Assembly (NCBI GenBank): GCA_035650495.1
Contig: DASRHK010000026.1
Location: 9,856-73,855 of the forward strand
Direction: 5' to 3'
DNA from: Nevskiaceae bacterium
GTDB taxonomy: Bacteria; Pseudomonadota; Gammaproteobacteria; Nevskiales; Nevskiaceae
Length of the DNA: 64,000 nt
Shown here in pieces: positions 4,731 to 23,780 of the stretch. The first letter of the stretch is position 1. Each line of letters starts with the position of its first letter. The notes beneath the pieces were generated by a model. That model ran no database searches. It was given only the letters and a program-made list of their open reading frames with translations, and was not told the origin of the DNA. Made by a program: the position numbers and the translations under genes.

Positions 4731-5147
4731 ATGAAAGCATTGCATCGATTCAGCCCTGTCCCGCTCGTCGTCCTGATCGCGAGCGTCGCGAGCGCCGCCG
4801 ACCGGCCGAGCGCCGACGACATCGCCAAGGCGCGCGCCGAATGCCACACGCAGACCGCCCGTCTGGCGGAGCTCGAGCGCGACGCCAGCTGGTGCACCGA
4901 CGACCAGAAGCTCTTGCAGACGCGCGACGCCGCGGAGCACAGCTGCGCACACTCCGAGGATCTGCTGATCGCGGCCGGCGTCGAGCCGAAGCCCGCGCAG
5001 CCCAAGGCCGCGCCGCCGGCGCCGCCGTCGATCACGATCACCGAGAAAGTGCGGACGGGCGCGACGCAGACCGCGTCGGCGGAGCCGGTCGCGCAGTTCG
5101 CCGCGATGGAAGTCGATCGCCGCTGCGAGCCGGGCGCGAAGCGCTAG
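4731..5147 (+). CDS. secreted hypothetical protein
   Basis: ATG at 4731. Signal peptide MKALHRFSPVPLVVLIASVASAA, followed by a Cys-containing helical region and a Pro/Ala linker. Confidence 0.5.
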   Translation: MKALHRFSPVPLVVLIASVASAADRPSADDIAKARAECHTQTARLAELERDASWCTDDQKLLQTRDAAEHSCAHSEDLLIAAGVEPKPAQPKAAPPAPPSITITEKVRTGATQTASAEPVAQFAAMEVDRRCEPGAKR

Positions 5148-5896: not shown

Positions 5897-6126
5897 CACG
5901 AATTCCCCCGAGTGGTGGTGAGGTTCGTCCGCATGGTGGACGCAGCGTAGGGCGCGTCGCCCTGCACGTCAGTCAGCTAGCGTACAAAGCGTTGAACTTT
6001 TACCTCGCCGTGACGGCTTTTCCCCCGCGCGCAAGCCCGCGAAAACAACGTACGAGAACGGACAGATTCGTCGCCGGATGGGAGCAAGAATCGCCTCCAA
6101 GTTGAACCTCCGGAGAGGGAAACGTC

Positions 6127-7038
6127 ATGTCACTGCACCGTCATCGCTTGCTGTTCGCCATTGCCGCGATCGCGCTCGCCGGCTGCGCAACCGATGCGCC
6201 GCTCGACAACGCCGCGATCGAGATGAAGGACCCGGCGATCGCGCCGACCGTCCACAACGCGGTGTTCCGCACCGAGGCGCCGAAGAAATCGGAAGCCGTC
6301 GATCAGGACGCCGATCCGCTGCTGAAGCTCGGTCCCGGCGACGCCGTGTCGGTGCAGGTGTTCGGACGGCCCGAGATGAGCACGACGACCTACGTCACCG
6401 ATCAGGGCACCATCGACGTTCCGCTCGCGGGCGCCGTGAAAGTCGAAGGCCTGTCGCCCGCGAAAGCGGCGCAGCGCGTCGCCTGGGCGCTGCGCGACGG
6501 ACAGTTCCTCAACGATCCGCACGTCAACATCACGCTGTCGAGCTTCAAGAGCCAGCAGGTCTCGGTGCTCGGCGAAGTGCACACGCCCGGCCGCTTCCCG
6601 ATCGAGTCGCGCACGACGCCGCTCGACCTCCTCGCCCAAGCCGGCGGGCCGACGGAGAACGCGTCCGACGTGATCTACGTCCTGCGTCCCGACGGCAAGG
6701 GCAACGTCTCGCGCTACGTCGTCGACCTCGCCTCGCTGCGCTCCGACGGCGCGCTGCCGCAGCTCTCGCTGCGCGGCGGCGATTCGCTCTACGTGCCGAA
6801 GGCCGATCAGTTCTACATCTACGGCGAAGTGCACACGCCGAACATGTACCGCCTCGAGCCCGGCATGACCGTGCTGCAGGCGATCGCGCGCGGCGGCGGC
6901 ATCACGCCGCGCGGCAGCCCGAGCCGCATCGAGATCAGCCGCCACGCCGAGGACGGCAAGCTCGTCACGGTGAGCGTCAAGCCCACCGACCCCGTGCAGC
7001 CCAACGACGTGATCCGTGTGAAGGAGAGGATTTTCTAA
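6127..7038 (+). CDS. polysaccharide export outer-membrane lipoprotein (Wza/EpsE-like)
   Basis: Lipobox IALAGC. Poly_export motif PGDAVSVQVFG. SLBB-like repeats (LDLLAQAGG..., MTVLQAIARGGGITP; LRGGDSLYVP). Confidence 0.9.
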   Translation: MSLHRHRLLFAIAAIALAGCATDAPLDNAAIEMKDPAIAPTVHNAVFRTEAPKKSEAVDQDADPLLKLGPGDAVSVQVFGRPEMSTTTYVTDQGTIDVPLAGAVKVEGLSPAKAAQRVAWALRDGQFLNDPHVNITLSSFKSQQVSVLGEVHTPGRFPIESRTTPLDLLAQAGGPTENASDVIYVLRPDGKGNVSRYVVDLASLRSDGALPQLSLRGGDSLYVPKADQFYIYGEVHTPNMYRLEPGMTVLQAIARGGGITPRGSPSRIEISRHAEDGKLVTVSVKPTDPVQPNDVIRVKERIF

Positions 7039-8507
7039 TGCAGCCCAACGATCCCAATGCCGGCGCGCTCGCCGTGCCCACGCAAGGCGGCGCGCTCGCG
7101 CATCCCTCCCCGTACGGCTACGGGATGGGACCCGCACCCGGCGCGCCCGCGGGCGGCATGTCGATCCCGCAGATCTTCGCGATCGGCCGCGCGCGCTGGC
7201 GACAGGGCGCGTGGATCGCCGGCGTGGTCATCGTGATGACCGCGCTGGTGACGCTGGTGATCCCGAAGACCTACACCGCGAGCGCGTCGGTGATGGTGAG
7301 CTACGACGTCAACGATCCGCTCGGCGGGCGCGAATTCCCCGCCGGCCTGCTGTCGAGCTACATGTCGACGCAGGTCGAGCTGGTCGGCAGCCCCGCCGTG
7401 CTGCTGCAGGTGGTGGATCAGCTCAAGCTCACGCAGAACAAGGACTACGCGAGCGGCTTCGACGGCGATCCGCGCGCGCTGCGCGAATGGGTGGCGAAGA
7501 AGCTCACGAAGGATCTGGAGATCAAGCAAGGCAACTACGGCAGCCAGCTGATCAACGTCACGGCGTCGGCGAACGACCCGCACCTCGCCGCGTCGATCGC
7601 CAACGAGGTGGTCGAGACCTATTCCGACCAGGCGCATCGCCGCCTGACCGATCCGGCCGCCGACACCGCGCATCGCTACGGCAAGGAGATCGAGGAGCTC
7701 AAGACCAAGGTGCAGGTCGCGCAGCAGAAGCTCGACGACTTCCGCCAGCGCACCAGCATGGTCGACATCCAGGCCAAGGCCGACGTCGACATCGCGCTGT
7801 TGAACGAGCTCGAGCACAAGCTGCTCGACGCCAGGAACGCGCGGCGCAGCGCGGAGTCGAAGCAGTCCTCCGATCCGGGCGTGAGCTCGGCGGTGCTCGG
7901 CTCGACCATGGTGCAGGGCCTGAAGGCGCAGCTCGCGACGCAGGAAGCGCGCATGGCCGAGCTGCGCACCACGCTCGGGCCGCGGCATCCGGACATCGTC
8001 CAGCTCCAGCAGCAGATCGACTCGACGCGCGCATCGCTCAACACCGAAGTGCATCGCTACGCGAGCAGCAACGACGCCGACCTCTCCCAGTCGAAGCAGC
8101 TCGAAGACAAGCTCTCCGCCGCCGTCGAGGAGCAGCGCAAGAAGCTCGTCGACATCCGTCGCATGCAGGACGAAGGCTCGCGCTACCAGATCGAGTTCGA
8201 CACCGCGCAGGCGGCTTACAAGAAAGCGCTCGAAGGCTATGAGCAGGTGATGATCGCCTCGAGCGGCCAGTACACCAACGTGCACATCGTCAATCGCGCG
8301 ACCCCGCCGCTCAAGGCCGCGAAGCCGAAATTCCTGATCAATCTTCTGATGGGCATCGTGTTCGGTGGCGCGCTCGGCGTGGCCATCCCGTTCGCCCGTG
8401 AGCTCGTCGGCCGCCGCGTGCGCTGCCGCGACGATCTGGAGCGGGATCACGGCATCCCGGTCCTCGTCGAGTTCGATCCCATGCCGGCCATCAGGAACGC
8501 ATCATGA
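7038..8507 (+). CDS. polysaccharide chain-length determinant / co-polymerase (Wzz, GumC/EpsF-like)
   Basis: ATG at 7038 overlaps the wza-like stop (TAATG). N-terminal TM WIAGVVIVMTALVTLVIP, a long coiled-coil periplasmic region, and C-terminal TM LLMGIVFGGALGVAIPF. Confidence 0.88.
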   Translation: MQPNDPNAGALAVPTQGGALAHPSPYGYGMGPAPGAPAGGMSIPQIFAIGRARWRQGAWIAGVVIVMTALVTLVIPKTYTASASVMVSYDVNDPLGGREFPAGLLSSYMSTQVELVGSPAVLLQVVDQLKLTQNKDYASGFDGDPRALREWVAKKLTKDLEIKQGNYGSQLINVTASANDPHLAASIANEVVETYSDQAHRRLTDPAADTAHRYGKEIEELKTKVQVAQQKLDDFRQRTSMVDIQAKADVDIALLNELEHKLLDARNARRSAESKQSSDPGVSSAVLGSTMVQGLKAQLATQEARMAELRTTLGPRHPDIVQLQQQIDSTRASLNTEVHRYASSNDADLSQSKQLEDKLSAAVEEQRKKLVDIRRMQDEGSRYQIEFDTAQAAYKKALEGYEQVMIASSGQYTNVHIVNRATPPLKAAKPKFLINLLMGIVFGGALGVAIPFARELVGRRVRCRDDLERDHGIPVLVEFDPMPAIRNAS

Positions 8508-9340
8508 ATTGGGGAAACGTCGTGAATAAGCTGCAACGCCGGCCAGAGCCGGCCGTGGAGCGCTCCACCGAGCTCGACGCGATGCGCGTCGAGCCCGCGC
8601 CGAGCTCCAACGAGCTGCGCCCGCTGCCCGAGAGCGACAACACGGTGCGCCACGTGCAGTTCACCAAGCGCGAGCCCGACCTCTCGCCGCGCGCGAACAC
8701 CAAGCCGTGGGGCAAGCCGAGCGTGCGCCTGCTCCTGCCCTACGACCCGTTCGATCCGCGCAGCGAGAAGATCCGCACGCTGCGCACCGAGCTCGTGTTG
8801 CGCCATCAGGGCCGCGAAGGCGCCAACATGGTCGTGATGATCTCGCCGCAGAACGGCGAAGGCCGCTCGCAGGTCGCCGCCGAGCTCGCGGTCGCGTGCG
8901 CGCAGCTCGGTCGCCGCACGCTGCTGGTCGACGCCGACCTGCGCCGTCCCGCGCAGCACATCCTGTTCATGGCGAAGAACCATCTCGGGCTCGCGCAGGC
9001 GATCGCGCGCGGCGAGCAGCCGCGCTGCAGGCCGGTCGAGGGCCTCGACAATCTCATGCTGGTCACCGCCGGCCCGACGCCGCGCAATCCGCTCGAGCTC
9101 CTCTCCGATCGCGCCTTCCGCGATCTCGTCGAGCACTGGCGCGCGAATTTCGACTTCGTGATCATCGACACGCCGCCCGCGTCGCGCTACGCCGACGCGC
9201 TCGCCGTCTCCTCGCTGGTGCGCCGCTGCGTCGCGCTCGCACGCTCGGGTCACACGCCCTACAACGACACGCGCGACATGATCCGCCGCCTGCAAGCCAC
9301 CGGCTCCGAGGTCCTCGGCGCAGTCATCAACCATTTCTGA
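8504..9340 (+). CDS. BY-kinase-like P-loop ATPase (EpsG / Wzc cytoplasmic-domain type), atypical Walker A
   Basis: Walker A-like ISPQNGEGRS (Arg where Lys is expected), Walker A' LLVDADLRRP, Walker B FVIIDTPP. No Tyr-rich C-terminal tail (ends ...GAVINHF). ATGA overlap with the upstream gene. Confidence 0.8.
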   Translation: MNWGNVVNKLQRRPEPAVERSTELDAMRVEPAPSSNELRPLPESDNTVRHVQFTKREPDLSPRANTKPWGKPSVRLLLPYDPFDPRSEKIRTLRTELVLRHQGREGANMVVMISPQNGEGRSQVAAELAVACAQLGRRTLLVDADLRRPAQHILFMAKNHLGLAQAIARGEQPRCRPVEGLDNLMLVTAGPTPRNPLELLSDRAFRDLVEHWRANFDFVIIDTPPASRYADALAVSSLVRRCVALARSGHTPYNDTRDMIRRLQATGSEVLGAVINHF

Positions 9341-9350
9341 GGAGGGGATC

Positions 9351-10733
9351 GTGGGGGAGATGCGATTCGCGACTCAGGCAGCCCGGGCCGGCAACAGCGA
9401 CGGCTGGCGCGGCGCGCTGGTCGCGCTGATGGCCTGGCTCCTGATCATCCTGATGATCGTGCCGGACAACTTCGACTATCTCGCGCTCAAGGTGAGCGTC
9501 GCGGCGCCGAGCGAAGGCAGCGTGCTGTCGCGCACGCTGTGGATCGCGCTGCTGGTGATCGGCGTCGTCGTCATCCTGTCGCGCGCGGCGCAGGCCTGGC
9601 AGCTGCTGCGCGCGATGAATCCGTTCCTGATCCTGTTCAGCGTCCTCGCGATCGCGAGCGTGGCGTGGTCGATCGATCCCGAAGTCACCATCCGGCGCTC
9701 GATCCGCGTCATCACCTTCTTCGTCGACGCCCTCGCGCTCGGCGTCGCCGGCTGGCATCCTCATCGCTTCCAGAATCTCGTGCGTCCCGTGATCACGCTG
9801 ATGCTCGCGGGATCGATCGTGTTCGGGCTCACCAATCCCGAGCTCGCGATCCACGACGAGAACTCGCCCGAGCTGATCGGCGCGTGGCACGGACTCGCGA
9901 GCCACAAGAACGGTCTCGGCGCGCTCGCCTGCATCGGCGTCATCTTCTGGGCGCACGCCTGGTTCTCGCGCCAGACGCGCGGGTGGCGCGCGCTCATCGG
10001 CCTTTCGATCGCCGCGGCCTGCCTCGTGCTGTCGCGCAGCTCGACGTCGATGATGGTGAGCGTGCTGTCGGTCGCATTCCTCGCGCTGCTGCAGCGCGGA
10101 CCCGCGGCGCTGCGACCGTTCATGCCGTGGCTCGTCGGCCTGTTCATCGGCGCGCTGTTGTTCTATTCGCTCGTGATCCTGCGCGTGATGCCTGGATCCG
10201 ACCTGATGCTGAAGCCGATCGCACATCTCACCGGCAAGGACCTCTCGTTCACGGGCCGCTCCGACATCTGGGACATCATCACCGACCACATCCGCTATCA
10301 CCCGCTGCTCGGCACCGGGCTCGGCGCCTACTGGACCGGCCCTATCCTCGGCACGCAGTCGTATGCGTTCGTCGAGCGGCTGCAGTTCTATCCGGGCTCC
10401 GCGCACAACGGCTATCTCGAGATCACCAACGATCTCGGGCTCGTCGGCCTGCTCTGCCTCGCCGGGTTCATCGTCGTCTTCGTCAAGCAGGCGCTGGCGC
10501 TCGGCCGCTTCGACCACGTGCAGGCGAGCCTCTATCTCGCGCTGTTCCTGCAGCAGGCGTTCACCAACCTGTCCGAGTCGCACTGGCTGTCGGTGCTCTC
10601 GGTGTGCTTCGTGATCATCAGCTTCGCGACGGTGTCGCTCGCGCGCGGCCTGATGGACGTTCGCGCGTGGCAGTGGGCGCAGCAGCGGCGCGCTGCGCAG
10701 ATGAATGGAGTGGCCCATGCCAGCCGCGCCTAG
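9351..10733 (+). CDS. O-antigen ligase / Wzy-type polymerase family membrane protein
   Basis: About 10-12 TM helices. Wzy_C signature region GRSDIWDIITDHIRYHPLLGTGLGAYW ... PGSAHNGYLEITNDLGLVGLL. GTG at 9351 follows a GAGGAGGGG RBS. Confidence 0.8.
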   Translation: MGEMRFATQAARAGNSDGWRGALVALMAWLLIILMIVPDNFDYLALKVSVAAPSEGSVLSRTLWIALLVIGVVVILSRAAQAWQLLRAMNPFLILFSVLAIASVAWSIDPEVTIRRSIRVITFFVDALALGVAGWHPHRFQNLVRPVITLMLAGSIVFGLTNPELAIHDENSPELIGAWHGLASHKNGLGALACIGVIFWAHAWFSRQTRGWRALIGLSIAAACLVLSRSSTSMMVSVLSVAFLALLQRGPAALRPFMPWLVGLFIGALLFYSLVILRVMPGSDLMLKPIAHLTGKDLSFTGRSDIWDIITDHIRYHPLLGTGLGAYWTGPILGTQSYAFVERLQFYPGSAHNGYLEITNDLGLVGLLCLAGFIVVFVKQALALGRFDHVQASLYLALFLQQAFTNLSESHWLSVLSVCFVIISFATVSLARGLMDVRAWQWAQQRRAAQMNGVAHASRA

Positions 10734-11817
10734 GAACTCCGGCGCGATCCCGTCGCTCGACGGCATCCGCGCGATCGCGGTGTCGCTCGTGTTCGCCGCG
10801 CACAGCGGGCTCGAGAACGTCATCCCCGGCGGGCTGGGCGTGACGATCTTCTTCGTGCTGTCGGGCTATCTCATCACCACCCTGATGCGCATCGAGCATG
10901 GCGCGAGCGGCACGGTCAGCTTCAAGGCGTTCTACCTGCGCCGCGTGCTGCGTCTGATGCCGCCGCTCGTCGTCGTCGTGGCGATTGCCGCTGTTCTCGC
11001 GCGACTCGGCATCGCCAACGGCGAGTTCACGCCGGCCGGCCTCGCATCGGTGCTGCTCTACTTCGGCAACTACTTCGTCATCGCGAACGACTTCCACGGC
11101 GTGCCCGAGGGCATCGGCGTGACGTGGTCGCTCGCGGTCGAGGAGCACTACTACCTGTTCTATCCGCCGCTCGCGCTGCTGCTGCTTCGCTTCGCGCGCG
11201 TTCGCGTCTCGGTCGCGCTGCTGGTGACGATGTGCGTCGCCGTGCTCGCGTGGCGCTGCTGGCTCGCCTCGCACGGCGGCTCGGAAGCGTGGATCACGAT
11301 GGCGACCGACACGCGCATCGACGCGATCCTCGCCGGCTGCATCCTCGCCCTCGTCGCCAATCCGTGGCTCGATCCGCCGCGCAGCCGCAATCCGGTCCGC
11401 GATCAGGCGATCCTCGGCGGCTGCATCGCGGTCCTGCTCGCCACGCTCGCGATCCGAAATGAGTTCTTCCGCGAGACGTTCCGCTACACCCTGCAGAGCT
11501 TGGCGATCGCGCCGCTGATCTGGCTCGCCGTCGCCAATCACGATCGGCCAACGTTCCGCTGGCTCGACTCCGCGCCGATGGCGTACGTCGGCAAAGTCTC
11601 TTACACGATCTATCTGTGCCATCACCTGATCCTGTGCGCGCTGCAGAAGCAGCTGCCGGATCTCCCCTGGCTCGCCATCGCGGCGCTCGGCGCGCTGCTC
11701 ACGCTCGCCGTCGCGGAGCCGATGCGGCGTCTCGTCGAAGAGCCCTGCGCGCGGCTGCGCAAGCGCCTGCACGGCAGCCCGGCGCCGCGCGTCGTGCTCG
11801 CGGAGCAAGTCTCATGA
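10717..11817 (+). CDS. acyltransferase family 3 membrane protein (polysaccharide O-acyl/acetyltransferase)
   Basis: N-terminal LDGIRAIAVSLVFAAHSG and WSLAVEEHYYLFYP motifs with multiple TM helices. The start could also be 10705. Confidence 0.85.
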   Translation: MPAAPRNSGAIPSLDGIRAIAVSLVFAAHSGLENVIPGGLGVTIFFVLSGYLITTLMRIEHGASGTVSFKAFYLRRVLRLMPPLVVVVAIAAVLARLGIANGEFTPAGLASVLLYFGNYFVIANDFHGVPEGIGVTWSLAVEEHYYLFYPPLALLLLRFARVRVSVALLVTMCVAVLAWRCWLASHGGSEAWITMATDTRIDAILAGCILALVANPWLDPPRSRNPVRDQAILGGCIAVLLATLAIRNEFFRETFRYTLQSLAIAPLIWLAVANHDRPTFRWLDSAPMAYVGKVSYTIYLCHHLILCALQKQLPDLPWLAIAALGALLTLAVAEPMRRLVEEPCARLRKRLHGSPAPRVVLAEQVS

Positions 11818-12734
11818 TCATCGCCAACCGGACCAGCATCTGCATCGCCACCTATCGAAGGCTCGACCGTCTCGCCGCGCTGCTCGACGACCTCACGCGC
11901 CAGACGGCGCTGCCGCTGGAGGTGATCGTCGTCGACAACGATCCTTCCGGCAGCGCGCACGCGGTGATCGAAGCGCGTCGCGCGTCGGGCACGCCCTTCC
12001 CGATCGTCTATGCGATCCAGCGCGAGAAGAACATCTCGCTCACGCGCAATCGCACGGTGGAGCTCGCGCGCGGCGAGTGGCTCGCCTTCCTCGACGACGA
12101 CGAGCGCGCGCCGGCCGAATGGCTCGAGACCATCACCGGCGCCGCGGCACGCTTCGACGCGACCGGCGTGCTCGGACCGGTCGTGCCCGCGATCCCCGCG
12201 GAAGCGCCGGCCTGGATCCAGCGCGGCAATTTCTACGACTGGCCGCGCTGCTTCACCGGCACGCTGGTGCCGCTCAACCGGCTGCGCTTCGGCAACGTGC
12301 TGCTGCACGCGAGCGCGCTGCGCCGCGAGCATCCGCCGTTCGACCCGGAATACGGCGTCACCGGCGGCGAGGACGGCGATCTGCTGACGCGGCTCGTGCT
12401 CAAGGGCGCGCGCGTCATCTGGTGCGACGAGGCGCAGGTGCGCGAGCCGATCGAGCCCGCGCGCATGCGGCTCGACTGGCTGATGAAGCGCGCGATGCGC
12501 GGCGGCCAGGATTTCGCGCGCCACACGCTCGCGGGCCGCTACGGCGAGCCGACGCAGAAGCGTCGCGTCGCGCTGATGTCGCGCGCCGTCGCGCAATGTG
12601 GGCTCGCCGCTGCCTTCGCGCTGCTCTCGCTGCCGCTCGGACGTCATCGCGCCGCCCATTGGCTGGCGCGCGCCTTCGCCAACTTCGGGAAGCTCTCCGT
12701 GCTCTGGGGCTGGCATTACCGGGAATACGCATGA
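11814..12734 (+). CDS. glycosyltransferase family 2 (non-processive type)
   Basis: ICIATYRRLDRL...VIVVDNDPSGSA and the LAFLDDDE (DxD) motif. ATGA overlap at 11814. Confidence 0.85.
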   Translation: MIIANRTSICIATYRRLDRLAALLDDLTRQTALPLEVIVVDNDPSGSAHAVIEARRASGTPFPIVYAIQREKNISLTRNRTVELARGEWLAFLDDDERAPAEWLETITGAAARFDATGVLGPVVPAIPAEAPAWIQRGNFYDWPRCFTGTLVPLNRLRFGNVLLHASALRREHPPFDPEYGVTGGEDGDLLTRLVLKGARVIWCDEAQVREPIEPARMRLDWLMKRAMRGGQDFARHTLAGRYGEPTQKRRVALMSRAVAQCGLAAAFALLSLPLGRHRAAHWLARAFANFGKLSVLWGWHYREYA

Positions 12735-13930: not shown

Positions 13931-13956
13931 AAGCGAGCGACGCACAGGACCATCCG

Positions 13957-18200: not shown

Positions 18201-20117
18201 CATCTCGATGCCGGCGCCGGCGCGATCGGCCTGATCAAGGCCGCGCTCGCGCTGCACCACAAGGCGCTGCCGCCGTCGATCCACTGCGACACGCCGAATC
18301 CCGACTGCGATTTCGAATCGACGCCCTTCTTCGTCAACACCGAATTCAAGCCGTGGCCGGCCGACGGCGTGCGCCGCGCGGCGATCTCGTCGTTCGGTTT
18401 CGGCGGCACCAATTTCCACGCCGTGCTCGAGGAAGCGCCGGCGCGCGCGAAGAGCGAAGCGCATCGATCGCTCCAGCTCCTGCAGATCTCCGCGCGCGAC
18501 GACGCCGCGCTGCAGCGGCAAGCCAAAGCGCTCGCCGATCATCTGCGATCGCATCCGAAGATCGATCTCGCCGACGTCGCCTACTCGCTCGCATCGGGAC
18601 GCGCGCAGTTGCCGCGCCGTGCAGCGATCGTCGCCGAGAATGCCAAGCAGGCCGCGCAGCTGCTCGACGCCGTGAAGCCTTCGGCGCCTGCCAATGAGCA
18701 GCCGAGCCTCGTGATGCTGTTCCCCGGCCAGGGCGCGCAGTACGCCGGCATGGGTGCGCAGCTGTATCGCGAGGAGCGCGTGTTCAGGGAGCGCTTCGAT
18801 CTTTGCGCGGAGATCGCAAAGCCGCTGCTGCAAGCCGATCTGCGCGATCTCCTTTACGGCGAAGACCGCGCTGCCGACGATCTGCTGCGCGAGACGCGTT
18901 TTGCGCAGCCGGCGATCTTCGCCGTCAGTTACGCGACCGCGGAGCTCTGGCGCAGCTGGGGCCTGGAGCCGGTCGCGATGGTCGGCCACAGCGTCGGCGA
19001 ATTCGTCGCCGCGACGCTGGCCGGCGTGTTCTCGGTCGAGGACGCCGTTCGCCTCGTCGCGCAGCGCGGCGCGCTGATGCAGGCGATGCCCTCGGGCGGC
19101 ATGCTCGCGGTTCGCCTCGGCGAGACCGACATCGCGCCGTGGCTGCAGGCCGGCATCGAAGTCGCCGGCTACAACGCGCCGCAACAGACCGTACTCTCCG
19201 GCGATCGCGCCGCGCTCGCCGCGCTGCAGGCAGAATTCTCGTCGCGCAACATCAGCGCGACCATCCTGAAGACCTCGCACGCATTCCACTCCGCGTCGAT
19301 GGATCGCGCGGCCACCGCCTTCGAGAAGATCGTCGCTGGCGTCGCTCGCAATCCGGCGCGCGCGGCGATCCTGTCCACGCGCAGCGGCCGCTTCATGGAC
19401 GCCGACGAGATGTGCGATCCGTCCTACTGGTCGCGCCAGATCCGCGAGCCGGTGCGGTTCGCACCCGCGATCGCGGAGCTCCTCAAGACGCCGGGTCGCG
19501 TCTTCCTCGAATGCGGTCCGGGTCACACGCTCTGCGCAGCGGTGCGCCAGGCGATCGGGCCGAAGCACGACGCGGTCGCGATCAACTCGCTGCCGGCGGA
19601 CGTGCACGGCGCCCCGGCGCTCGAATACGTCCTCGGCGCAGCCGCTCGCCTGTTCACCGCGGGCATCGCGCTCGACGCGCGCAAGCTCTTCGCCGGTGCT
19701 CGCCGCAACCGCATCTCGCTGCCCGGATATCCATTCGCGCGTACCAAGTACTGCCTGCCGATCGGCGCCGACGCGCCCATCGCGGCGCCGATCGCCGAGG
19801 CGCAGCCGCTGCCGACCGCGGTCGCGCCGCCGGCGAGCAACAACGAAGTCGCCGATCCGATGGTCGCGTATCTCCTCGGCGTCTTCGGAGAGCTCACCGG
19901 ACGCCGCTTCAGCGCCGATCAGGCCGACACCGGCTTCTTCGATCTCGGGCTCGACTCGCTCGTGCTCCTGCAGGTTTCCGCGCGGCTCAAGAAGGACCTG
20001 CGCGTGAACCTGCGCTTCCGCGCGCTGCTCGACGAGCACGACAGTGTCAGCGCGCTCGCGCGCGCGCTCGCAGACAACGGCGCGAGCCTCGAGACACCAC
20101 TGGAGGCCACGGCATGA
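15276..20117 (+). CDS. hybrid NRPS-PKS: A - T - KS - AT - ACP
   Basis: A domain: LIYTSGSTGKPKGV, NMYGPTETT, YRTGDLA, LRGFRIEPGDIE, NGKLDR. T domain: FFERGGTSLQA. KS: VIGMACRTPG, TACSSSG, EAHGTGT, GNVGHLDAGAG. AT: FPGQGAQY, GHSVGEF, HAFHS. ACP: LGLDSLVLL. No KR/DH/ER/TE domain. Confidence 0.95.
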   Translation: MTLPDDTVRGRTDRPMSADHNASTPMKHAAKHMNHVHQHIFELARRQPQSPAVRFADRTQTYEELASRAQAIANALREAGAGRGRCVAVCMERGLDMPAALLGVLSTGAAYLPIDPAFPSERIDAILEDAKAVAVLTSRDVAIKTAAPQVCVDDVRESSADAVDVSDDAAAYLIYTSGSTGKPKGVVVTHRNLANFLESMALEPGLRGSDVLLAVTTISFDIAGLELWLPLTVGATMVIASRDDAMDGERLRALIDEHKVSLMQATPSTWRLLIAAEWKGSPGFRALCGGEPLPIDLAKQLLDRGVELWNMYGPTETTIWSTLWRVTEAKGPILIGKPIANTQCYVLDENRKQCADGETGELYIGGDGVARGYHERPELTAEKFLDDPFLPGNRMYRTGDLARRHANGDLECLGRIDFQIKLRGFRIEPGDIEAALREHPAVVDAAVGVRERAPGDARLVAWIQLHDGVAIDAPQLRAHVANKLPAYMVPQHYAPIAELPRLINGKLDRKSLPDPFQQVRPEGRPTSEAPAGTALEDAIAAIWADVLGTTEPIGRDERFFERGGTSLQAISVLAKVRALIGTRVPVTKFFAAPTIAQFAAMLEKDYPTRGADASERSDESRQTLPSARNERGSGDIAVIGMACRTPGAENVQQFWQMICAGREGVRDLTDAELDDAGVPKFEREHPAYVKRGGVLKDAYAFDAEFFGYSPREAELMDPQHRVMLETAWHAMEDAGIAPSSGARVGVYVGVAHNHYFDRAVANQPVLRWGDSGFQTQLGADKDYAASRIAFKLDLRGPALALQTACSSSGVAIHLACQALRAGDCDAALAGGARVNAPDAGYVHVDGGPQAIDGKVRPFAKDASGMVLASGAACLVLKTLERAQADGDRIYAVIKGSAINNDGADKIAFTAPSQAGQVDVIRRALAQSGVDPASVGYVEAHGTGTHIGDPIEVAALAQGYEAAERIALGSVKGNVGHLDAGAGAIGLIKAALALHHKALPPSIHCDTPNPDCDFESTPFFVNTEFKPWPADGVRRAAISSFGFGGTNFHAVLEEAPARAKSEAHRSLQLLQISARDDAALQRQAKALADHLRSHPKIDLADVAYSLASGRAQLPRRAAIVAENAKQAAQLLDAVKPSAPANEQPSLVMLFPGQGAQYAGMGAQLYREERVFRERFDLCAEIAKPLLQADLRDLLYGEDRAADDLLRETRFAQPAIFAVSYATAELWRSWGLEPVAMVGHSVGEFVAATLAGVFSVEDAVRLVAQRGALMQAMPSGGMLAVRLGETDIAPWLQAGIEVAGYNAPQQTVLSGDRAALAALQAEFSSRNISATILKTSHAFHSASMDRAATAFEKIVAGVARNPARAAILSTRSGRFMDADEMCDPSYWSRQIREPVRFAPAIAELLKTPGRVFLECGPGHTLCAAVRQAIGPKHDAVAINSLPADVHGAPALEYVLGAAARLFTAGIALDARKLFAGARRNRISLPGYPFARTKYCLPIGADAPIAAPIAEAQPLPTAVAPPASNNEVADPMVAYLLGVFGELTGRRFSADQADTGFFDLGLDSLVLLQVSARLKKDLRVNLRFRALLDEHDSVSALARALADNGASLETPLEATA

Positions 20118-22093
20118 GCCTCGACGATCGCAGCATCCTGTCCGCCGGCATCGATCGCGACGCGTTCGAGGCCGTCGAGCCGATCACCGAATCGCAGCGC
20201 GAGCTGTGGATGGCGGCCGCGCTCGGCGATCACGTCAACATCGCCTTCAACGAGGGCCTGACCTGGACGCTCGCCGGCACGCTCGACGTGCAGGCGCTCG
20301 AGCGCGCGCTGCAGCACATCGTCGCGCGCCATCAGTCGCTCCGCGCGACGTTCGGCGCCGATGGCGCGTCCATGCGTGTGCTGCGCGAGCTGCCGGTCAC
20401 GCTCGCGCCGATCTCGATCGAGGACGCGCCGGATCGTGATGCCGCGCTTCGCGACGCCGCGAAGAAGCTGACCGGCGCGCCGCTCGATCTCGAGCGCGGC
20501 CCCCTGTTCCGCTTCCAGCTGCTGCGCGCGAGCCCGTCGCTGCACTACCTCTTGTTCGTCGCGCACCACATCGTGTGCGACGGCTGGTCCTACAAGCTGA
20601 TCGGCGAAGAGCTGTGCGCGCTCTACAACCAGGCGCGCGCCGGCCAGCCCCTCGGCCTTCCGCATGCAGCGCAGCCGTACACCGAATACGCGAAGCGCGA
20701 GCGCGACTTCCTCGCCTCCGCCGACGCGCAGGAAAGCCTGCGCTACTGGGTCGACGCGCTGCGCGATCCGCCGATGCCGCTCGCGCTGCCGGGCGACCAT
20801 CCTCGCGCCAGGACGCGCGAATACCAGGCTGCGCGCTACGACCATGTGCTCGACGCCGACCTCACGCGCGCGCTGCGCACGTGCGCGGCTGGGCAGCGCC
20901 TCTCCATCGCGACCGCGCTGTTCGGCGGATTCGCAGTGCTCGCGCATCGACTGACCGGCAACGAAGACCTCGTGCTCGGCATCGCGGCGGCGGGACAGAT
21001 GCAGCACGACCTGCCGCAGGTGGTCGGCCATTGCGTCAACTTCCTGCCCCTGCGGCTGAAGCCGCGCGGCGAGCAGACGCTGCGCGCGTTCCTGCGCGAG
21101 GCACGCGGGTCGATGCTCGACGCGGTCGAGCATCAGGGCATCACGCTGGGCAAGCTGCTCCAGCACCTCAAGATCAAACGTCAGCCGGGACGGCCGCCGC
21201 TGATTGCGGTGACGATGAACCTGGACGGCCGCGACGCGCCGCTGCGCTACGACGGTCTCGACGTGCGCGCACAGCGCATCGAGCGCCAGGCCGAGAACTT
21301 CGAGCTGTTCCTGAACATCGTCGACGAAGGCGAGACGATGACGCTGCAGTGCTCGTACAGTGCCCAGCTGTTCAGCGCCGCGACGATGCGCGCGCACATG
21401 CAGCACTACGAAGCGCTGCTGCGCGCGATGCCTGCGCATCTGGACACCAAGCTCGCGCAGCTGCCGATCGCCGCGAACGCCGGCGCGCATGACGCAGCCG
21501 CGCCGGACGTCCCGGCGCCCAACTTCGTCGAGCTGCGCGGCGTGCAGATCGATCTCTGCGAGATCGAGCGCGCGCTTGCGGCTTGCGACGGCGTCGAAGC
21601 GTGCGCCTGCGACGTGCGCGAGCGCGGCCCCGAGGATCCGCGTCTGGTCGCTTGGGTGCAGCTCAAGCCCGAAGCGGGCGCGACCACTGCCGATCTGCGT
21701 CAGCAGCTGCGCGAGCGCGGTCTCGCTTCGCACCTGCTGCCGCAGCATTTCCGCGTCGTCGACGTGCTCGATCGCGGCGCGTTGCCGGACCCGTTCTCGC
21801 AGGCGGAAGCGCCGGTGGTGGCGAAAGCGCCGCGCACCGAAGTCGAGGAGCGTATCGCGCTGATCTGGCGCGAAGTGCTCGGCCACGACGCGTTCGGCGT
21901 CAGCGATCGCCTGCTCGACGTCGGCGGGCATTCGCTGCTCGCGGTCGAGGTCGCGCTGAAGCTCAAGCAGACGTTCGGCGTGAAGTTGCTGCTGCGCGAA
22001 GTGATGACCGGAACGCTGGCGCAGATCGCGGCAGCCTGCTCGGCGGGCGCGGCGAACGAATCGGTGTCGCTGCCGGCGGCGGCGGGAGCCTGA
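20114..22093 (+). CDS. NRPS condensation protein: C - (adenylation C-terminal subdomain remnant) - T
   Basis: C domain HHIVCDGWS. It is followed directly by an A8-like VELRGVQIDLCEIE and Asub-like sequence, with no A1-A7 core. T domain LLDVGGHSLLAVE. ATGA overlap at 20114. Confidence 0.9.
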   Translation: MSLDDRSILSAGIDRDAFEAVEPITESQRELWMAAALGDHVNIAFNEGLTWTLAGTLDVQALERALQHIVARHQSLRATFGADGASMRVLRELPVTLAPISIEDAPDRDAALRDAAKKLTGAPLDLERGPLFRFQLLRASPSLHYLLFVAHHIVCDGWSYKLIGEELCALYNQARAGQPLGLPHAAQPYTEYAKRERDFLASADAQESLRYWVDALRDPPMPLALPGDHPRARTREYQAARYDHVLDADLTRALRTCAAGQRLSIATALFGGFAVLAHRLTGNEDLVLGIAAAGQMQHDLPQVVGHCVNFLPLRLKPRGEQTLRAFLREARGSMLDAVEHQGITLGKLLQHLKIKRQPGRPPLIAVTMNLDGRDAPLRYDGLDVRAQRIERQAENFELFLNIVDEGETMTLQCSYSAQLFSAATMRAHMQHYEALLRAMPAHLDTKLAQLPIAANAGAHDAAAPDVPAPNFVELRGVQIDLCEIERALAACDGVEACACDVRERGPEDPRLVAWVQLKPEAGATTADLRQQLRERGLASHLLPQHFRVVDVLDRGALPDPFSQAEAPVVAKAPRTEVEERIALIWREVLGHDAFGVSDRLLDVGGHSLLAVEVALKLKQTFGVKLLLREVMTGTLAQIAAACSAGAANESVSLPAAAGA

Positions 22094-22095
22094 CG

Positions 22096-22854
22096 ATGGA
22101 GCCACTCTACTTCGGTCCCGGCGGTCGGCTGTTCGGCCTGCGCTCCGAGCCGATCGGCCCCGCGCGCAAGACCGCCATCCTGATCTGCCACAGCTGGGGC
22201 GTCGAGTACATGCGCAGCTATCGCGCGCTGTTCCTGCTCGCGCAGCAGCTCGGCGCGCGCGGCTTCGAGACGCTGCGCTTCGATTACTCCGGCACCGGAG
22301 ACGCGGCCGAGATGAACGAGGATGCGACGCTCGAGCGCTGGGTCGAGGACATCCGCTGCGCCGCCGACGAGCTGCGCGCGCTCTCCGGCGCCGATCACAT
22401 CTGCCTGCTCGGCCTGCGGCTCGGCGCGCTGCTCGCGATGCGCGCAGCGAGCAGCGGCGTGCAAGCCGAGGCCGCGGCGCTGTGGGACGCGCCCGAATCC
22501 GGACGCCGCTGGATCGGCGAGCTGCAGGAGCTCGACCGCCTGCACTACGCGCACAAGAACCGCTACCTGCCGCCGAAGCTCGCGTTGCAGCCGCTGCCGG
22601 GCGAGATCCTCGGCCGCCGCTGGCCCGAAGAGCTCGACGCCTCGGTGTCGCCGCTGACGCCGCTGGCGCCGCATTCGGTCGCGCAGCTGTTCCATCTGCG
22701 CAGCGCCGATGCCATCGAGATGTCGCTGGACGGCGAAGCAATCAAGCTGCCGGACCCGGCGCACTGGAACGACGTCACCTGGATCACGCGGCCGTGGATC
22801 CCGGCGAGCACGCAGCGCGTGATCGCGGATGCGCTCGCGGAGCGCCTGCAATGA
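22096..22854 (+). CDS. alpha/beta-hydrolase-fold protein, nucleophile position occupied by Arg (GLRLG)
   Basis: Alpha/beta hydrolase layout (AILICHSWG ... ICLLGLRLGALLAM). The start lies 2 nt after the upstream stop. Confidence 0.75.
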   Translation: MEPLYFGPGGRLFGLRSEPIGPARKTAILICHSWGVEYMRSYRALFLLAQQLGARGFETLRFDYSGTGDAAEMNEDATLERWVEDIRCAADELRALSGADHICLLGLRLGALLAMRAASSGVQAEAAALWDAPESGRRWIGELQELDRLHYAHKNRYLPPKLALQPLPGEILGRRWPEELDASVSPLTPLAPHSVAQLFHLRSADAIEMSLDGEAIKLPDPAHWNDVTWITRPWIPASTQRVIADALAERLQ

Positions 22855-23780
22855 AAGAGCGCGCCATCCAGTTCGGGCCGGAGCGCCGGCTGATCGGCAT
22901 CCTGTCGCTGCCGGAGACGGTCGATCCGTCGCTGCCCGCGATCATCGTGCCGAACACCGGCGTGGAGCATCGCGTCGGACCCAATCGCCTGCACATCCGC
23001 CTGTGCCGCGCGTTCGCGCGCCTGGGCTTCGTCAGCCTGCGCATGGACATGTCCGGCATGGGCGACAGCGGACTGCCGCCCGACGGCGGCCGCGGGGATC
23101 CGGTGTCCGACATGCAGGCCGCGATGGAGCAGCTGCAGCGCATGAAGCTCGCCAGCAAGTTCATCCCGGTGGGCTTGTGCTCCGGCGGCAACGACGCGCA
23201 CCTGCTGGCGCGCGTGGACGATCGCGTGGTCGCCGCCGCGTTCATCGACCACTATCAGTACCGCACGCCGCGCGCGTTCTTCATCCAGCTCGCGCAGAAG
23301 CTCAGCGATCCGCGCCGCATCGGCAATTTCCTGCGCCGCAAGTGGGCGGAGCTCTCCGGCAAGCCGCGCACGGAATACGATCCGAATCTCGTCAACTTCT
23401 TCGAGCAGCCGTCGCGCGGCCAATTCCTCGGCGACCTCGAGCGCTTCATGCGCCGGCGCATGGCGCTGTTCTTCCTCTACACGGGCGAGAACCAGAACGT
23501 CTACAACTACGCCGATCAGCTCTACGACGTCTGTCCGCGGCTGCGCGACTATCCGCTGCAATCGCTGCACTACGTGCCGCGCTGCGACCACACCTTCACG
23601 CACGAGGAGATGCGCGCGCAGCTGATCGCGGTGCTCGAGCGCTGGCTGACGACGCACATCCTGAAGCGCGAGGACGAAGACGAGATCGACGTCGTCGAGA
23701 GCGCGAACGATCCGGGCGGCGATCTGCCGCAGGACTTCCCGGCGTTCAGCCCCTTGCCCGGGAAGATGCTGTCGCGCTAG
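22851..23780 (+). CDS. alpha/beta-hydrolase-fold protein with Cys at the nucleophile elbow (GLCSG)
   Basis: PAIIVPNTG ... FIPVGLCSGGNDAHL ... CDHTF. ATGA overlap at 22851. Last gene of the operon. Confidence 0.75.
   Translation: MKERAIQFGPERRLIGILSLPETVDPSLPAIIVPNTGVEHRVGPNRLHIRLCRAFARLGFVSLRMDMSGMGDSGLPPDGGRGDPVSDMQAAMEQLQRMKLASKFIPVGLCSGGNDAHLLARVDDRVVAAAFIDHYQYRTPRAFFIQLAQKLSDPRRIGNFLRRKWAELSGKPRTEYDPNLVNFFEQPSRGQFLGDLERFMRRRMALFFLYTGENQNVYNYADQLYDVCPRLRDYPLQSLHYVPRCDHTFTHEEMRAQLIAVLERWLTTHILKREDEDEIDVVESANDPGGDLPQDFPAFSPLPGKMLSR

What the first reader, a model, noticed from the sequence alone, without database searches (positions are those of the whole stretch)
6127..23780. 17.6-kb translationally coupled operon joining Wza/Wzz/Wzy/Wzx exopolysaccharide machinery to an NRPS-PKS assembly line
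Twelve same-strand genes run from the exporter to the second hydrolase, with start/stop overlaps at almost every junction: TAATG at 7036-7040 and ATGA at 8504, 11814, 12731, 15276, 20114 and 22851. The largest spacer is 10 nt, or 26 nt if the flippase uses ATG 13957. The flippase stop overlaps the start of a 1613-aa A-T-KS-AT-ACP megasynthase. NRPS/PKS genes normally form their own secondary-metabolite clusters. Here the layout implies co-expression with Wzx/Wzy-type assembly. That suggests a glycine-plus-malonate-derived acyl unit built for attachment to the repeat unit, the polymer or its lipid anchor. I know of no characterised EPS pathway with this design. It resembles, but is not the same as, the poorly understood acyl-CoA ligase/ACP/decarboxylase/hydrolase sets of exosortase-A (PEP-CTERM) EPS loci.
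Basis: partly seen in the sequence, partly recalled or inferred. Interest (0 to 1): 0.85.

Follow-up and report, generated by a model that had tools for sequence, protein, structure and literature searches.

The report
Polysaccharide operon fused to NRPS-PKS line
A Nevskiaceae bacterium carries one tightly packed 12-gene operon that joins a standard slime-polysaccharide export and assembly kit to a small peptide-polyketide assembly line, and the same pairing in differently arranged relatives suggests, without proving, that the polysaccharide receives an unusual assembly-line-made decoration.

Summary
Twelve + strand genes (6127-23780) abut or overlap at every junction. They encode Wza, Wzz, BY-kinase, Wzy, an AT3 acyltransferase, two GT2s, a structurally confirmed Wzx, then A-T-KS-AT-ACP, a C-T protein and two alpha/beta-fold proteins.

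New points:
- g10 has lost its adenylation core, yet this A-less form is conserved under purifying selection in three relatives.
- The two "hydrolases" belong to a very large uncharacterised paired family. One partner has an invariant Arg at the nucleophile elbow; the other has a Cys-Asp-His triad. They are distantly related to the exosortase-A "hydrolase 2/1" families, are sometimes fused, and are almost always next to TE-less NRPS(-PKS) genes.
- The same NRPS-PKS/hydrolase/PPTase cassette sits beside Wzx-type polysaccharide loci in at least five different arrangements.
- 77 of 80 loci with this EPS cassette lack an NRPS-PKS directly after wzx, so the module is accessory.
- A divergent Sfp-type PPTase, a stand-alone A-T gene and the priming transferase lie just outside the reported span.

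Best reading (about 0.45): carrier-protein-dependent decoration of the polysaccharide with a Gly-like-plus-malonate unit. Main rival (about 0.3): a co-regulated free metabolite. No characterised precedent was found.

The parts
5144..5899 (-). Sfp-type 4'-phosphopantetheinyl transferase, divergent from the operon
   Evidence: Pfam 4PPT_N + ACPS. NCBIfam Npt/PptT-like. A PPTase also accompanies the NRPS-PKS/hydrolase cassette in L084, L086, L168 and the P0147 contig.
5900..6126 (.). Divergent intergenic region; presumed promoter region of the operon (inferred)
   Evidence: It is the only sizeable non-coding gap upstream. The sigma-70 consensus scan found nothing, which is uninformative at 68% GC.
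6127..7038 (+). g1: outer-membrane polysaccharide export protein (Wza/EpsE-like)
   Evidence: Poly_export + SLBB domains. TIGR03028 EpsE 244 bits, cut-off 263.
7038..8507 (+). g2: polysaccharide co-polymerase (Wzz/EpsF-like)
   Evidence: GNVR and Wzz domains. TIGR03017 EpsF 297 bits, below cut-off.
8504..9340 (+). g3: BY-type tyrosine autokinase (EpsG-like), separate from the co-polymerase
   Evidence: TIGR01007 126 bits, above cut-off 108. TIGR03029 EpsG 168 bits.
9351..10733 (+). g4: Wzy_C-family polymerase or ligase
   Evidence: PF04932, 65 bits.
10705..11817 (+). g5: AT3-family membrane acyltransferase
   Evidence: PF01757, 111 bits.
11814..12734 (+). g6: GT2 glycosyltransferase
   Evidence: PF00535.
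12731..13930 (+). g7: GT2 glycosyltransferase, EpsU-like
   Evidence: NF041865, 488 bits, cut-off 700.
13957..15279 (+). g8: Wzx-type MOP flippase
   Evidence: No Pfam hit. AF2 model pLDDT 91.6; best PDB match is the WzxE lipid III flippase, TM 0.78/0.83.
15276..20117 (+). g9: hybrid NRPS-PKS, A(Gly-like)-T-KS-AT(malonyl)-ACP; no KR, DH, ER, AMT or TE
   Evidence: Pfam and TIGR01733 (438 bits, above cut-off). Motifs: S566, C805/H940/H978, GHSVG + HAFH, S1562. Specificity code DILQACMIWK.
20114..22093 (+). g10: C-[A C-terminal subdomain remnant]-T; adenylation core deleted
   Evidence: Pfam. Alignment with the 1077-aa orthologue of L082 shows the deletion. HHIVCDG and GGHSL motifs are intact. 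The same A-less form occurs in P0232-P0234, with omega 0.21-0.28.
22096..22854 (+). g11: 'hydrolase 2'-like alpha/beta-fold protein with Arg at the nucleophile elbow (GLRLG)
   Evidence: TIGR03101, 76 bits, below cut-off. Arg invariant in 62 homologues, with no conserved His or Asp in the C-terminal half.
22851..23780 (+). g12: 'hydrolase 1'-like alpha/beta hydrolase with invariant Cys110-Asp133-His247
   Evidence: TIGR03100, 56 bits, below cut-off. Alignment A2. AF2 model pLDDT 86.
26316..28262 (-). Stand-alone A-T didomain protein; possible trans-loading partner (inferred)
   Evidence: Pfam AMP-binding + PP-binding. Relatives carry divergent A-T-TE or C-A-T-TE genes beside wza.
29210..29986 (+). 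Priming polyprenyl-phosphate sugar-phosphate transferase (WbaP C-terminal type)
   Evidence: Bac_transf, 215 bits. TIGR03022/03025 below cut-offs.
29996..31093 (+). GH8 endoglucanase, BcsZ-like
   Evidence: NF008305, 408 bits, above cut-off 299.
31003..31902 (-). WecG/TagA-family glycosyltransferase
   Evidence: PF03808. TIGR00696, 77 bits, above cut-off 69.
31988..33247 (-). EpsL-like outer-membrane beta-barrel protein
   Evidence: TIGR03014, 120 bits, below cut-off. Homologues sit beside the cassette in L084, L086 and L168.

Best explanation
The region is a Wzx/Wzy-dependent exopolysaccharide operon of a Nevskiaceae bacterium. A compact, thioesterase-less NRPS-PKS line has been fused into it as an accessory tailoring module.

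Shown from sequence:
- The divergent Sfp-type PPTase can supply the phosphopantetheine arms.
- g9 has an amino-acid-type A domain with a Gly-like code, a T domain, an active KS, a malonyl-type AT and an ACP. It has no reductive or aminotransferase domain.
- g10 has an intact C domain and T domain but no adenylation core.
- g11 and g12 are a conserved Arg-elbow / Cys-triad alpha/beta-fold pair.

Inferred mechanism:
- g9 builds a gamma-amino-beta-ketoacyl thioester (4-amino-3-oxobutanoyl-S-ACP if the starter is glycine).
- The g10 C domain joins it to an amino acid on its own T domain. That T domain would be loaded in trans, by the g9 A domain or by the stand-alone A-T at 26316-28262.
- The Cys enzyme g12, working with the non-catalytic partner g11, takes the chain off the carrier. 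It passes it to a hydroxyl or amino group of the undecaprenyl-diphosphate-linked repeat unit on the cytoplasmic face.
- The operon's own Wzx, Wzy and Wza then flip, polymerise and export the decorated unit.
For: All junctions are overlaps or gaps of at most 26 nt, with no terminator-like site at the wzx/NRPS junction.

The wzx-NRPS start/stop overlap recurs in L082 (74% Wzx identity) and in a Nevskia MAG, L068 (50%).

The same [A-T-KS-AT-ACP(-AMT)]-[C-A-T]-hyd2-hyd1(-PPTase) cassette lies beside polysaccharide genes in other orders:
- L084: upstream of Bac_transf, WecG, wza, wzz, kinase, wzy and AT3.
- L168: beside a different locus with GT4, a GT2-Polysacc_synt fusion, an EpsL-like gene and Bac_transf.
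- L065: C-A-hyd2-hyd1 before GT2, EpsU, Wzx and AT3.
- L087: a minimal A-T + hyd2 + hyd1 set next to GT4, GLF, an epimerase and GH genes.

Fused hyd2-hyd1 proteins lie a few kb from Wzx homologues in L036 and L053. In L036 the fusion is flanked by a DltB-like MBOAT and an EpsL gene.

The only curated relatives of g11 and g12 are the exosortase-A EPS-associated hydrolase 2/1 families.

At least 11 related EPS cassettes also carry a divergent (C-)A-T(-TE) gene beside wza.

The operon has no TE domain and no small-molecule exporter; its transport proteins are Wzx and Wza.

The A-less g10 is under purifying selection (omega 0.15-0.28), so the module is in use.

No GC discontinuity separates the halves.
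Against: Nothing here shows a covalent link between the product and the polysaccharide.

77 of 80 related EPS cassettes lack an NRPS-PKS directly after wzx, so the machinery does not need the module.

Among 38 metagenomic hyd1 loci of at least 8 kb, nearly all contain NRPS genes, but only 6 show EPS genes detectable with the window's proteins. L085, L090/L091 and the P0147 contig show none nearby.

A-domain codes vary widely across the family (Val-, Thr-, Ser-, Pro- and Gly-like), as is typical of secondary metabolites.

The fold search gives g12 only generic esterase, lipase and trans-thioesterase matches at TM about 0.5-0.57, with no transferase signature.

Which A domain loads the g10 T domain is unknown.

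The Gly assignment rests on a 7-8 of 10 code match, using a GrsA reference sequence recalled from memory.
Confidence: 0.45

Rival explanations
1. The NRPS-PKS/hydrolase cassette makes a free small molecule, and it shares the transcript with the EPS genes only for co-regulation, for example during biofilm formation. The product could be a short beta-ketoacyl dipeptide or the tetramic acid that such an N-(beta-ketoacyl)-aminoacyl thioester can form. The Cys hydrolase g12 would release it by hydrolysis or cyclisation.
For: In the wider family the hyd2/hyd1 pair is above all an NRPS companion: 35 of 38 loci have A domains and only 6 of 38 have detectable EPS genes. Substrate codes are diverse. Most related EPS cassettes work without the module. 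The g10 C domain resembles ordinary NRPS C domains that accept acyl donors; its best PDB match is PvdL C1. Top fold matches of g12 include a trans-acting PKS thioesterase, DcsB.
Against: The operon has no dedicated exporter, regulator or tailoring gene. The cassette repeatedly sits beside polysaccharide loci in different arrangements, and two of those loci are of a different type. The hyd fusion lies next to a DltB-like MBOAT and EpsL. The only curated relatives of the hydrolases are EPS-system-associated. No Dieckmann-cyclase-like structure was among the top 50 fold matches.
Confidence: 0.3
2. The assembly-line product is not a side decoration. It is a primer, terminal cap or anchor to which the polymer is ligated, and the Wzy_C-family protein g4 acts as the ligase rather than the polymerase.
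For: g4 belongs to the family that includes O-antigen ligases (PF04932). PKS-like genes are said to be needed for a capsule lipid carrier in Sinorhizobium rkp-1; this is from my own knowledge and was not checked here.
Against: g4 homologues are present in nearly all related cassettes that lack the NRPS-PKS. The product has no long acyl chain, because there is one extension and no FAAL. No other Wzy candidate was found in the window.
Confidence: 0.1
3. The adjacency is an accident of genome rearrangement or horizontal insertion and has no functional meaning.
For: The module is absent from most related cassettes. The hydrolase family has thousands of members in many contexts.
Against: The start/stop overlap at the junction is conserved in three genomes down to 50% Wzx identity. 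Association with polysaccharide loci recurs in at least five arrangements. There is no compositional break.
Confidence: 0.08
4. The NRPS half is decaying: the A-less g10 is a pseudogene remnant.
For: About 418 aa with motifs A1-A8 are deleted, and so is the A10 Lys motif.
Against: The reading frame and the C and T motifs are intact. The same architecture persists in relatives at 79-85% identity. Omega is 0.21-0.28 overall and 0.15-0.17 in the remnant itself, at dS 0.39-0.47.
Confidence: 0.03

Closest known systems
Exosortase-A (XrtA/PEP-CTERM) EPS-locus set: acyl-CoA ligase (TIGR03098), ACP, PLP decarboxylase (TIGR03099), hydrolase 1 (TIGR03100), hydrolase 2 (TIGR03101); function uncharacterised
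   Same: An adenylating enzyme and a carrier protein are followed by a pair of dissimilar alpha/beta-fold proteins inside an EPS locus. g11 and g12 hit exactly these two models, in the order hydrolase 2 then hydrolase 1. The EPS core resembles the EpsE/F/G/L families.
   Different: All scores are below the family cut-offs. No exosortase, PEP-CTERM protein or decarboxylase was found in the window. A full NRPS-PKS plus a C-T module replaces the ligase and ACP.
DltABCD (D-alanylation of teichoic acids) and Vibrio cholerae AlmEFG (glycine on lipid A; PMC4278540)
   Same: An NRPS-type A domain loads a small amino acid on a carrier protein, and the amino acid is then transferred to a cell-surface glycoconjugate. 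AlmE uses glycine. A DltB-like MBOAT sits beside the hyd2-hyd1 fusion in relative L036.
   Different: Here there are also a PKS extension and a condensation step. The window has no MBOAT or AlmG-type transferase, and the proposed transferase is a Cys alpha/beta hydrolase. The Dlt details are from my own knowledge.
MycA/ItuA-type initiation module of iturin lipopeptides (acyl ligase-ACP-KS-AMT-C-A-T)
   Same: The commonest form of this cassette in relatives is A-T-KS-AT-ACP-AMT followed by C-A-T. This is the same logic of extension, transamination and condensation.
   Different: The starter is an amino acid, not a fatty acid. The line stops after one condensation and has no TE. The window and L082 lack the AMT domain. 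The MycA architecture is from my own knowledge.
Collimonas arenae carenaemin (PMC8313283)
   Same: The authors propose that a hybrid PKS/NRPS core is attached to a sugar of a Wzy-pathway repeat unit and exported through that pathway.
   Different: It involves two separate chromosomal loci and a different, larger assembly line. The product is a diffusible antifungal, and the coupling is hypothetical there too.
Myxococcus xanthus EPS pathway proteins (EpsU, EpsD, EpsY, EpsV, EpsA, EpsZ NCBIfam models)
   Same: g7 scores 488 bits on the EpsU model. Weaker hits link g1, g2, g6, the WecG-type GT and the priming transferase to the other models.
   Different: All scores are below the equivalog cut-offs. 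To my knowledge no NRPS/PKS is part of that pathway.

Membership tests
Wzx/Wzy-dependent polysaccharide pathway | OPX exporter (Wza) plus PCP and BY-kinase | tested here: met
   Poly_export/SLBB domains; Wzz/GNVR domains; TIGR01007 at 126 bits, above cut-off 108.
Wzx/Wzy-dependent polysaccharide pathway | Wzx flippase of the MOP superfamily | tested here: met
   No Pfam or PDB sequence hit. The AF2 model (pLDDT 91.6) best matches WzxE, TM 0.78/0.83.
Wzx/Wzy-dependent polysaccharide pathway | Wzy polymerase, priming phosphoglycosyl transferase and glycosyltransferases | tested here: met
   Wzy_C (g4), two GT2s, Bac_transf at 29210-29986 and WecG at 31003-31902. Polymerase versus ligase activity of g4 is not testable here.
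Exosortase-A system-associated ligase/ACP/decarboxylase/hydrolase set | Hydrolase 1 and hydrolase 2 reach the TIGR03100/TIGR03101 cut-offs | tested here: not met
   g12 scores 56 bits against cut-off 168; g11 scores 76 bits against cut-off 203. They are distant relatives only.
Exosortase-A system-associated ligase/ACP/decarboxylase/hydrolase set | Exosortase and PEP-CTERM proteins in the locus or genome | tested here: not met
   None among the window proteins scanned. The choice-of-anchor P protein ends without a sorting tail. The rest of the genome was not available.
Exosortase-A system-associated ligase/ACP/decarboxylase/hydrolase set | PLP-dependent decarboxylase (TIGR03099) and ligase_PEP_1 (TIGR03098) | tested here: not met
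   No decarboxylase was found. The g9 A domain scores 240 bits on TIGR03098 against cut-off 592, and is better explained by TIGR01733.
Type I hybrid NRPS-PKS assembly line | A, T, KS, AT, ACP and C domains with intact catalytic motifs, plus a PPTase | tested here: met
Type I hybrid NRPS-PKS assembly line | Complete second module (C-A-T) and an integrated release domain (TE or R) | tested here: not met
   The A core of g10 is deleted. No TE or R domain is present. Release is presumably by g11/g12.
MycA-type beta-amino-acid-forming module | Aminotransferase (class III) domain after the ACP | tested here: not met
   tblastn with the AMT domain of L084 finds nothing in the window. The domain is present in L068, L084, L086 and at least 14 metagenomic loci.
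Dlt/AlmEFG-type carrier-protein-dependent aminoacylation of surface glycoconjugates | A domain plus carrier protein dedicated to a glycan locus | tested here: met
   g9, g10 and the stand-alone A-T lie within the EPS locus.
Dlt/AlmEFG-type carrier-protein-dependent aminoacylation of surface glycoconjugates | Dedicated transferase (MBOAT DltB or AlmG-type) and demonstrated transfer to the glycan | not testable with these tools
   The window has no MBOAT; an AT3 acyltransferase (g5) and the Cys hydrolase g12 are the candidates. A DltB-like gene occurs in relative L036. Transfer needs biochemistry.

The most novel reading that the evidence does not exclude
A new class of exopolysaccharide whose repeat unit is covalently tailored by a hybrid NRPS-PKS product (a Gly-like starter plus a malonate-derived beta-ketoacyl unit, possibly joined to a second amino acid). 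A previously unrecognised two-protein transacylase would off-load it: an Arg-elbow pseudo-hydrolase paired with a Cys-Asp-His alpha/beta hydrolase. The same mechanism would then explain the long-unassigned 'hydrolase 1/2, exosortase A system-associated' families and thousands of TE-less NRPS loci that carry this pair.
Probability: 0.35. Interest if true: 0.85.

Novelty: new variant of a known kind. Interest (0 to 1): 0.66.

Why it matters
Wzx/Wzy polysaccharides are normally decorated by simple CoA- or nucleotide-activated groups. Assembly-line chemistry feeding a polysaccharide pathway would widen the known chemical space of bacterial matrices and capsules.

It would also give a concrete, testable function to two things. 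One is a very large uncharacterised alpha/beta-fold pair family: about 3,200 clusters at 50% identity with E <= 1e-30. The other is the exosortase-associated hydrolase 1/2 genes.

If the product instead proves to be a free metabolite, the conserved Arg/Cys pair would still be a new off-loading device for TE-less NRPS lines. The conserved A-less C-T module would be a clean case for studying trans-loading.

Tried and rejected
- The consensus promoter/terminator scan of 5000-24800 found no promoter, and the only terminator-like sites lie inside g4 and g12. At 68% GC this is uninformative.
- The pseudogene hypothesis for g10 was rejected by conservation and dN/dS.
- An assembly artefact was rejected because independent contigs share the arrangement.
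- A recent horizontal insertion got no support from base composition. Flanking repeats were not searched.
- The idea that g12 is a Dieckmann cyclase (tetramate route) got no support from the PDB profile search or the fold search, which gave only generic esterases, lipases and DcsB. It is not excluded.
- Exosortase system membership: no exosortase or PEP-CTERM tail was found.
- A profile search of Wzx homologues against PDB sequences found nothing; only the fold comparison worked.
- Rfam found only a tRNA.
- Literature searches on exosortase-associated ligase/hydrolase genes, NRPS/PKS with Wzx/Wzy, and Nevskia or relatives found no description of this design. The closest was the carenaemin hypothesis. 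One search failed on syntax.
- My simple GC3 gene caller failed on loci of about 60% GC, so the ORF listing was used instead.

Full report
SOURCE AND LAYOUT

Exact protein look-ups place the window in a 75-kb contig of a metagenome-assembled 'Nevskiaceae bacterium' (proteins HZP11302-HZP11337). GC is about 68% throughout, with no break across the finding. Third-position GC (0.88-0.93) identifies twelve consecutive + strand genes from 6127 to 23780. A convergent DsbA gene follows at 23777-24499, and a divergent gene lies upstream at 5144-5899.

Junction distances are -1, -4, +10, -29, -4, -4, +26, -4, -4, +2 and -4 nt. The 13957 start of the flippase fits the N-termini of 33 homologues. The 15276 start of the megasynthase has a GGAG 5 nt upstream, and it is conserved together with its first residues in an 85%-identical relative. 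NCBI's annotation uses 15351.

THE POLYSACCHARIDE HALF

g1-g8 are:
- g1: a Wza/EpsE-like exporter.
- g2: a Wzz/EpsF-like co-polymerase.
- g3: a separate EpsG-like BY-kinase.
- g4: a Wzy_C protein.
- g5: an AT3 acyltransferase.
- g6: a GT2 glycosyltransferase.
- g7: an EpsU-like GT2.
- g8: a polytopic membrane protein with no Pfam hit.

An AlphaFold model of g8 (pLDDT 91.6) best matches the WzxE lipid III flippase (TM 0.78/0.83), ahead of MATE and MurJ. The 'flippase' call is therefore right.

More of the locus lies outside the reported span:
- a priming transferase at 29210-29986;
- a BcsZ-like GH8 at 29996-31093;
- a WecG-type GT at 31003-31902 (-);
- an EpsL-like outer-membrane barrel at 31988-33247 (-);
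- a Crp-type regulator at 33302-34216 (-).

No exosortase or PEP-CTERM protein was found among the window proteins scanned.

THE ASSEMBLY-LINE HALF

g9 (1613 aa) is A-T-KS-AT-ACP, and all catalytic residues are present: S566; C805/H940/H978; GHSVG with the malonyl-type HAFH; S1562. Its A domain is of the amino-acid type (TIGR01733 at 438 bits, cut-off 317; Asp235 and Lys517 present). Its ten-residue code is DILQACMIWK, close to the canonical glycine code. g9 has no KR, DH, ER, aminotransferase or TE domain.

g10 (659 aa) is a C domain (HHIVCDG), then only the C-terminal subdomain of an A domain, then a T domain (GGHSL). Alignment with the 1077-aa orthologue in the closest genome shows an in-frame loss of motifs A1-A8, and of the A10 lysine motif as well. 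This is not decay:
- The same 653-666-aa architecture occurs in three further relatives at 79-85% identity.
- dN/dS against two of them is 0.21 and 0.28 overall, and 0.15-0.17 within the remnant, at dS 0.39-0.47.

The g10 C domain is most similar to C1 of PvdL. From my own knowledge, that domain takes an acyl donor.

The divergent upstream gene is an Sfp-type PPTase. A stand-alone A-T protein is encoded at 26316-28262 (-).

THE TWO 'HYDROLASES'

g11 and g12 weakly but specifically hit the NCBIfam models 'hydrolase 2' and 'hydrolase 1, exosortase A system-associated' (76 and 56 bits, both below cut-off).

In 40 homologues of g12, G-L-C110-S-G, D133 and D246-H247 are invariant. This is a Cys-Asp-His triad. 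In 62 homologues of g11 the nucleophile position is always Arg (G-x-R108-x-G). Cys31 is nearly invariant, and no His or Asp is conserved in the C-terminal half. g11 is therefore unlikely to be a hydrolase.

The two proteins are fused into one polypeptide, with the Arg and Cys retained, in loci L036 and L053. This argues that they act as a complex.

The g12 model (pLDDT 86) matches only generic esterases, lipases, a PETase and the trans-acting thioesterase DcsB, at TM about 0.5-0.57. The family is very large: 3,182 clusters at 50% identity with E <= 1e-30 and 7,530 with E <= 1e-10.

COMPARATIVE CONTEXT CENTRED ON THE FLIPPASE

Eighty genome loci centred on g8 homologues show that the g1-g8 cassette is widespread. 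It occurs in Nevskia, Steroidobacteraceae, Lysobacteraceae, Burkholderiales and others.

Only two of these loci have an NRPS-PKS directly after wzx, as the window does: L002/L082 (74% identity, with a complete C-A-T) and the Nevskia MAG L068. In both, start and stop overlap.

NRPS-type genes nonetheless recur around this cassette:
- At least 11 loci have a divergent A-T-TE or C-A-T-TE gene beside wza.
- L065 has C-A-hyd2-hyd1 just upstream of GT2-EpsU-Wzx-AT3.
- L036, L037 and L053 have hyd2/hyd1 genes a few kb from wzx; in L036 and L053 the two are fused.
- In L036 the fusion is flanked by a DltB-like MBOAT (169 bits) and an EpsL gene.

COMPARATIVE CONTEXT CENTRED ON THE CYS HYDROLASE

Neighbourhoods of g12 homologues show a conserved cassette: [A-T-KS-AT-ACP, usually with an aminotransferase domain]-[C-A-T]-hyd2-hyd1, often with a PPTase.
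- L084: the cassette lies upstream of Bac_transf, WecG, wza, wzz, kinase, wzy and AT3. This is the same EPS cassette in a different order.
- L168: it lies beside a different polysaccharide locus with GT4, a GT2-Polysacc_synt fusion, GT2, an EpsL-like gene and Bac_transf.
- L087: a minimal A-T + hyd2 + hyd1 set lies beside GT4, UDP-galactopyranose mutase, an epimerase and glycoside hydrolases.

Against this, 38 more distant metagenomic loci of at least 8 kb gave these counts: hyd2 in 37, A domains in 35, C domains in 26, aminotransferase domains in 14 and KS domains in 10. EPS genes detectable with the window's proteins appeared in only 6. This test probably undercounts glycan genes. A-domain codes across the family are diverse.

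INTERPRETATION

Firmly shown:
- The operon structure.
- The domain content, including the A-less module that is kept by selection.
- The unusual Arg/Cys alpha/beta-fold pair and its distant kinship with the exosortase-associated hydrolases.
- The repeated, rearrangement-independent neighbourhood of this cassette with Wzx-type polysaccharide loci in the window's wider lineage.

Inferred:
- The chemistry: a gamma-amino-beta-ketoacyl unit from a Gly-like starter and malonate, then condensation with an amino acid loaded in trans.
- Above all, the fate of the product.

I favour transfer to the lipid-linked repeat unit by g12 with g11 (confidence about 0.45). The grounds are the lack of a TE or exporter, the glycan contexts, the MBOAT neighbour and the EPS-linked curated relatives.

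The main rival is a free metabolite that is merely co-transcribed with the EPS genes (about 0.3). It is supported by the NRPS-dominated contexts of the wider family and by the variable substrates. An anchor or primer role, chance adjacency and gene decay are less likely.

COMPARISON WITH KNOWN SYSTEMS

The region works most like carrier-protein-dependent decoration of surface glycoconjugates: Dlt, and AlmEFG, which puts glycine on lipid A (PMC4278540). It also resembles the uncharacterised ligase/ACP/decarboxylase/hydrolase set of exosortase-A loci. It fails the membership tests for that set: scores are below cut-offs, and no exosortase, PEP-CTERM protein or decarboxylase is present.

In relatives, the assembly-line logic parallels the MycA-type extend, transaminate and condense module. 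The window lacks the aminotransferase domain.

The only literature precedent I found for coupling an NRPS/PKS product to a Wzy pathway is the unproven proposal for Collimonas carenaemin, which involves two separate loci (PMC8313283). Other searches returned nothing relevant.

I rate the finding a new variant of a known kind, with interest 0.66.

Noticed in passing
window 26316-28262 (-): The stand-alone A-T protein has a code of roughly DAFWQIAALR, and its A10 motif reads NGRVDR. The normally invariant catalytic Lys517 is therefore Arg. It lies between the two halves of the EPS locus and could be the trans-loading partner of the A-less g10, or it could be inactive.
   Followed up: partly
window 28367-29029 (-): A secreted 'choice-of-anchor P' family protein (94 bits, cut-off 27) lies directly upstream of the A-T gene. 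It has a signal peptide but no PEP-CTERM or other sorting tail, and it ends ...SGILTCPCL.
   Followed up: partly
L036 1248-3179 (-) and 4419-5963 (-); L053 17657-19546 (+): Natural fusions of hyd2 (Arg elbow) and hyd1 (Cys elbow) form single proteins of about 630-640 aa. In L036 a DltB-like MBOAT (TIGR04091, 169 bits) and an EpsL gene lie beside the fusion, a few kb from a Wzx homologue.
   Followed up: partly
L083 6426-7874 and 11208-12704 (-); same layout in many of L007-L071: The commonest form of the related EPS cassette has an extra 482-aa gene with no Pfam hit between the AT3 and GT2 genes. It also has a convergent FemAB-like Acetyltransf_6 gene after wzx. This hints at another route of aminoacyl decoration in cassettes that lack the NRPS-PKS.
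   Followed up: no
L085 (Candidatus Binatia MAG) 3936-18784: The cassette is split and duplicated: A-T; C-A-T; hyd2; hyd1; KS-AT-ACP; C-A-T fused to a hyd2-like domain; a second hyd1 paralogue. A GH5 cellulase with CBM2 follows.
   Followed up: no
window 29996-31093 (+) / 31003-31902 (-): The BcsZ-like GH8 endoglucanase (408 bits, above cut-off) converges on the WecG-type GT, and their 3' ends overlap by about 90 nt. A cellulase-type enzyme in the locus suggests a beta-glucan-like backbone.
   Followed up: no
window 35193-37703 (+): An 836-aa protein combines an N-terminal OmpR-type DNA-binding domain (Trans_reg_C), a Ser/Thr protein kinase domain and TPR repeats. A stand-alone response regulator lies next to it at 34707-35120.
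   Followed up: no
window 24570-25220 (+): A CheB methylesterase domain protein without a receiver domain (216 aa) lies between the operon and the rest of the EPS locus. The Binatia locus L085 has a CheB/CheR/PAS fusion next to its cassette.
   Followed up: no
window 47977-48912 (-) and 49569-50603 (+): A truncated class II tRNA-synthetase-like gene (311 aa) and a radical SAM gene are divergently arranged. The layout looks like the EpmA/EpmB elongation factor P lysylation pair, which is ordinary housekeeping. A tRNA gene lies at 42993-43082 (-).
   Followed up: no
window 15276 vs 15351: Public annotations disagree on the g9 start: JGI gives 1613 aa and NCBI gives 1588 aa. The Shine-Dalgarno sequence and conservation in L170 favour 15276. 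The first 34 residues are not conserved in L082, where the gene starts at a GTG overlapping the wzx stop.
   Followed up: yes
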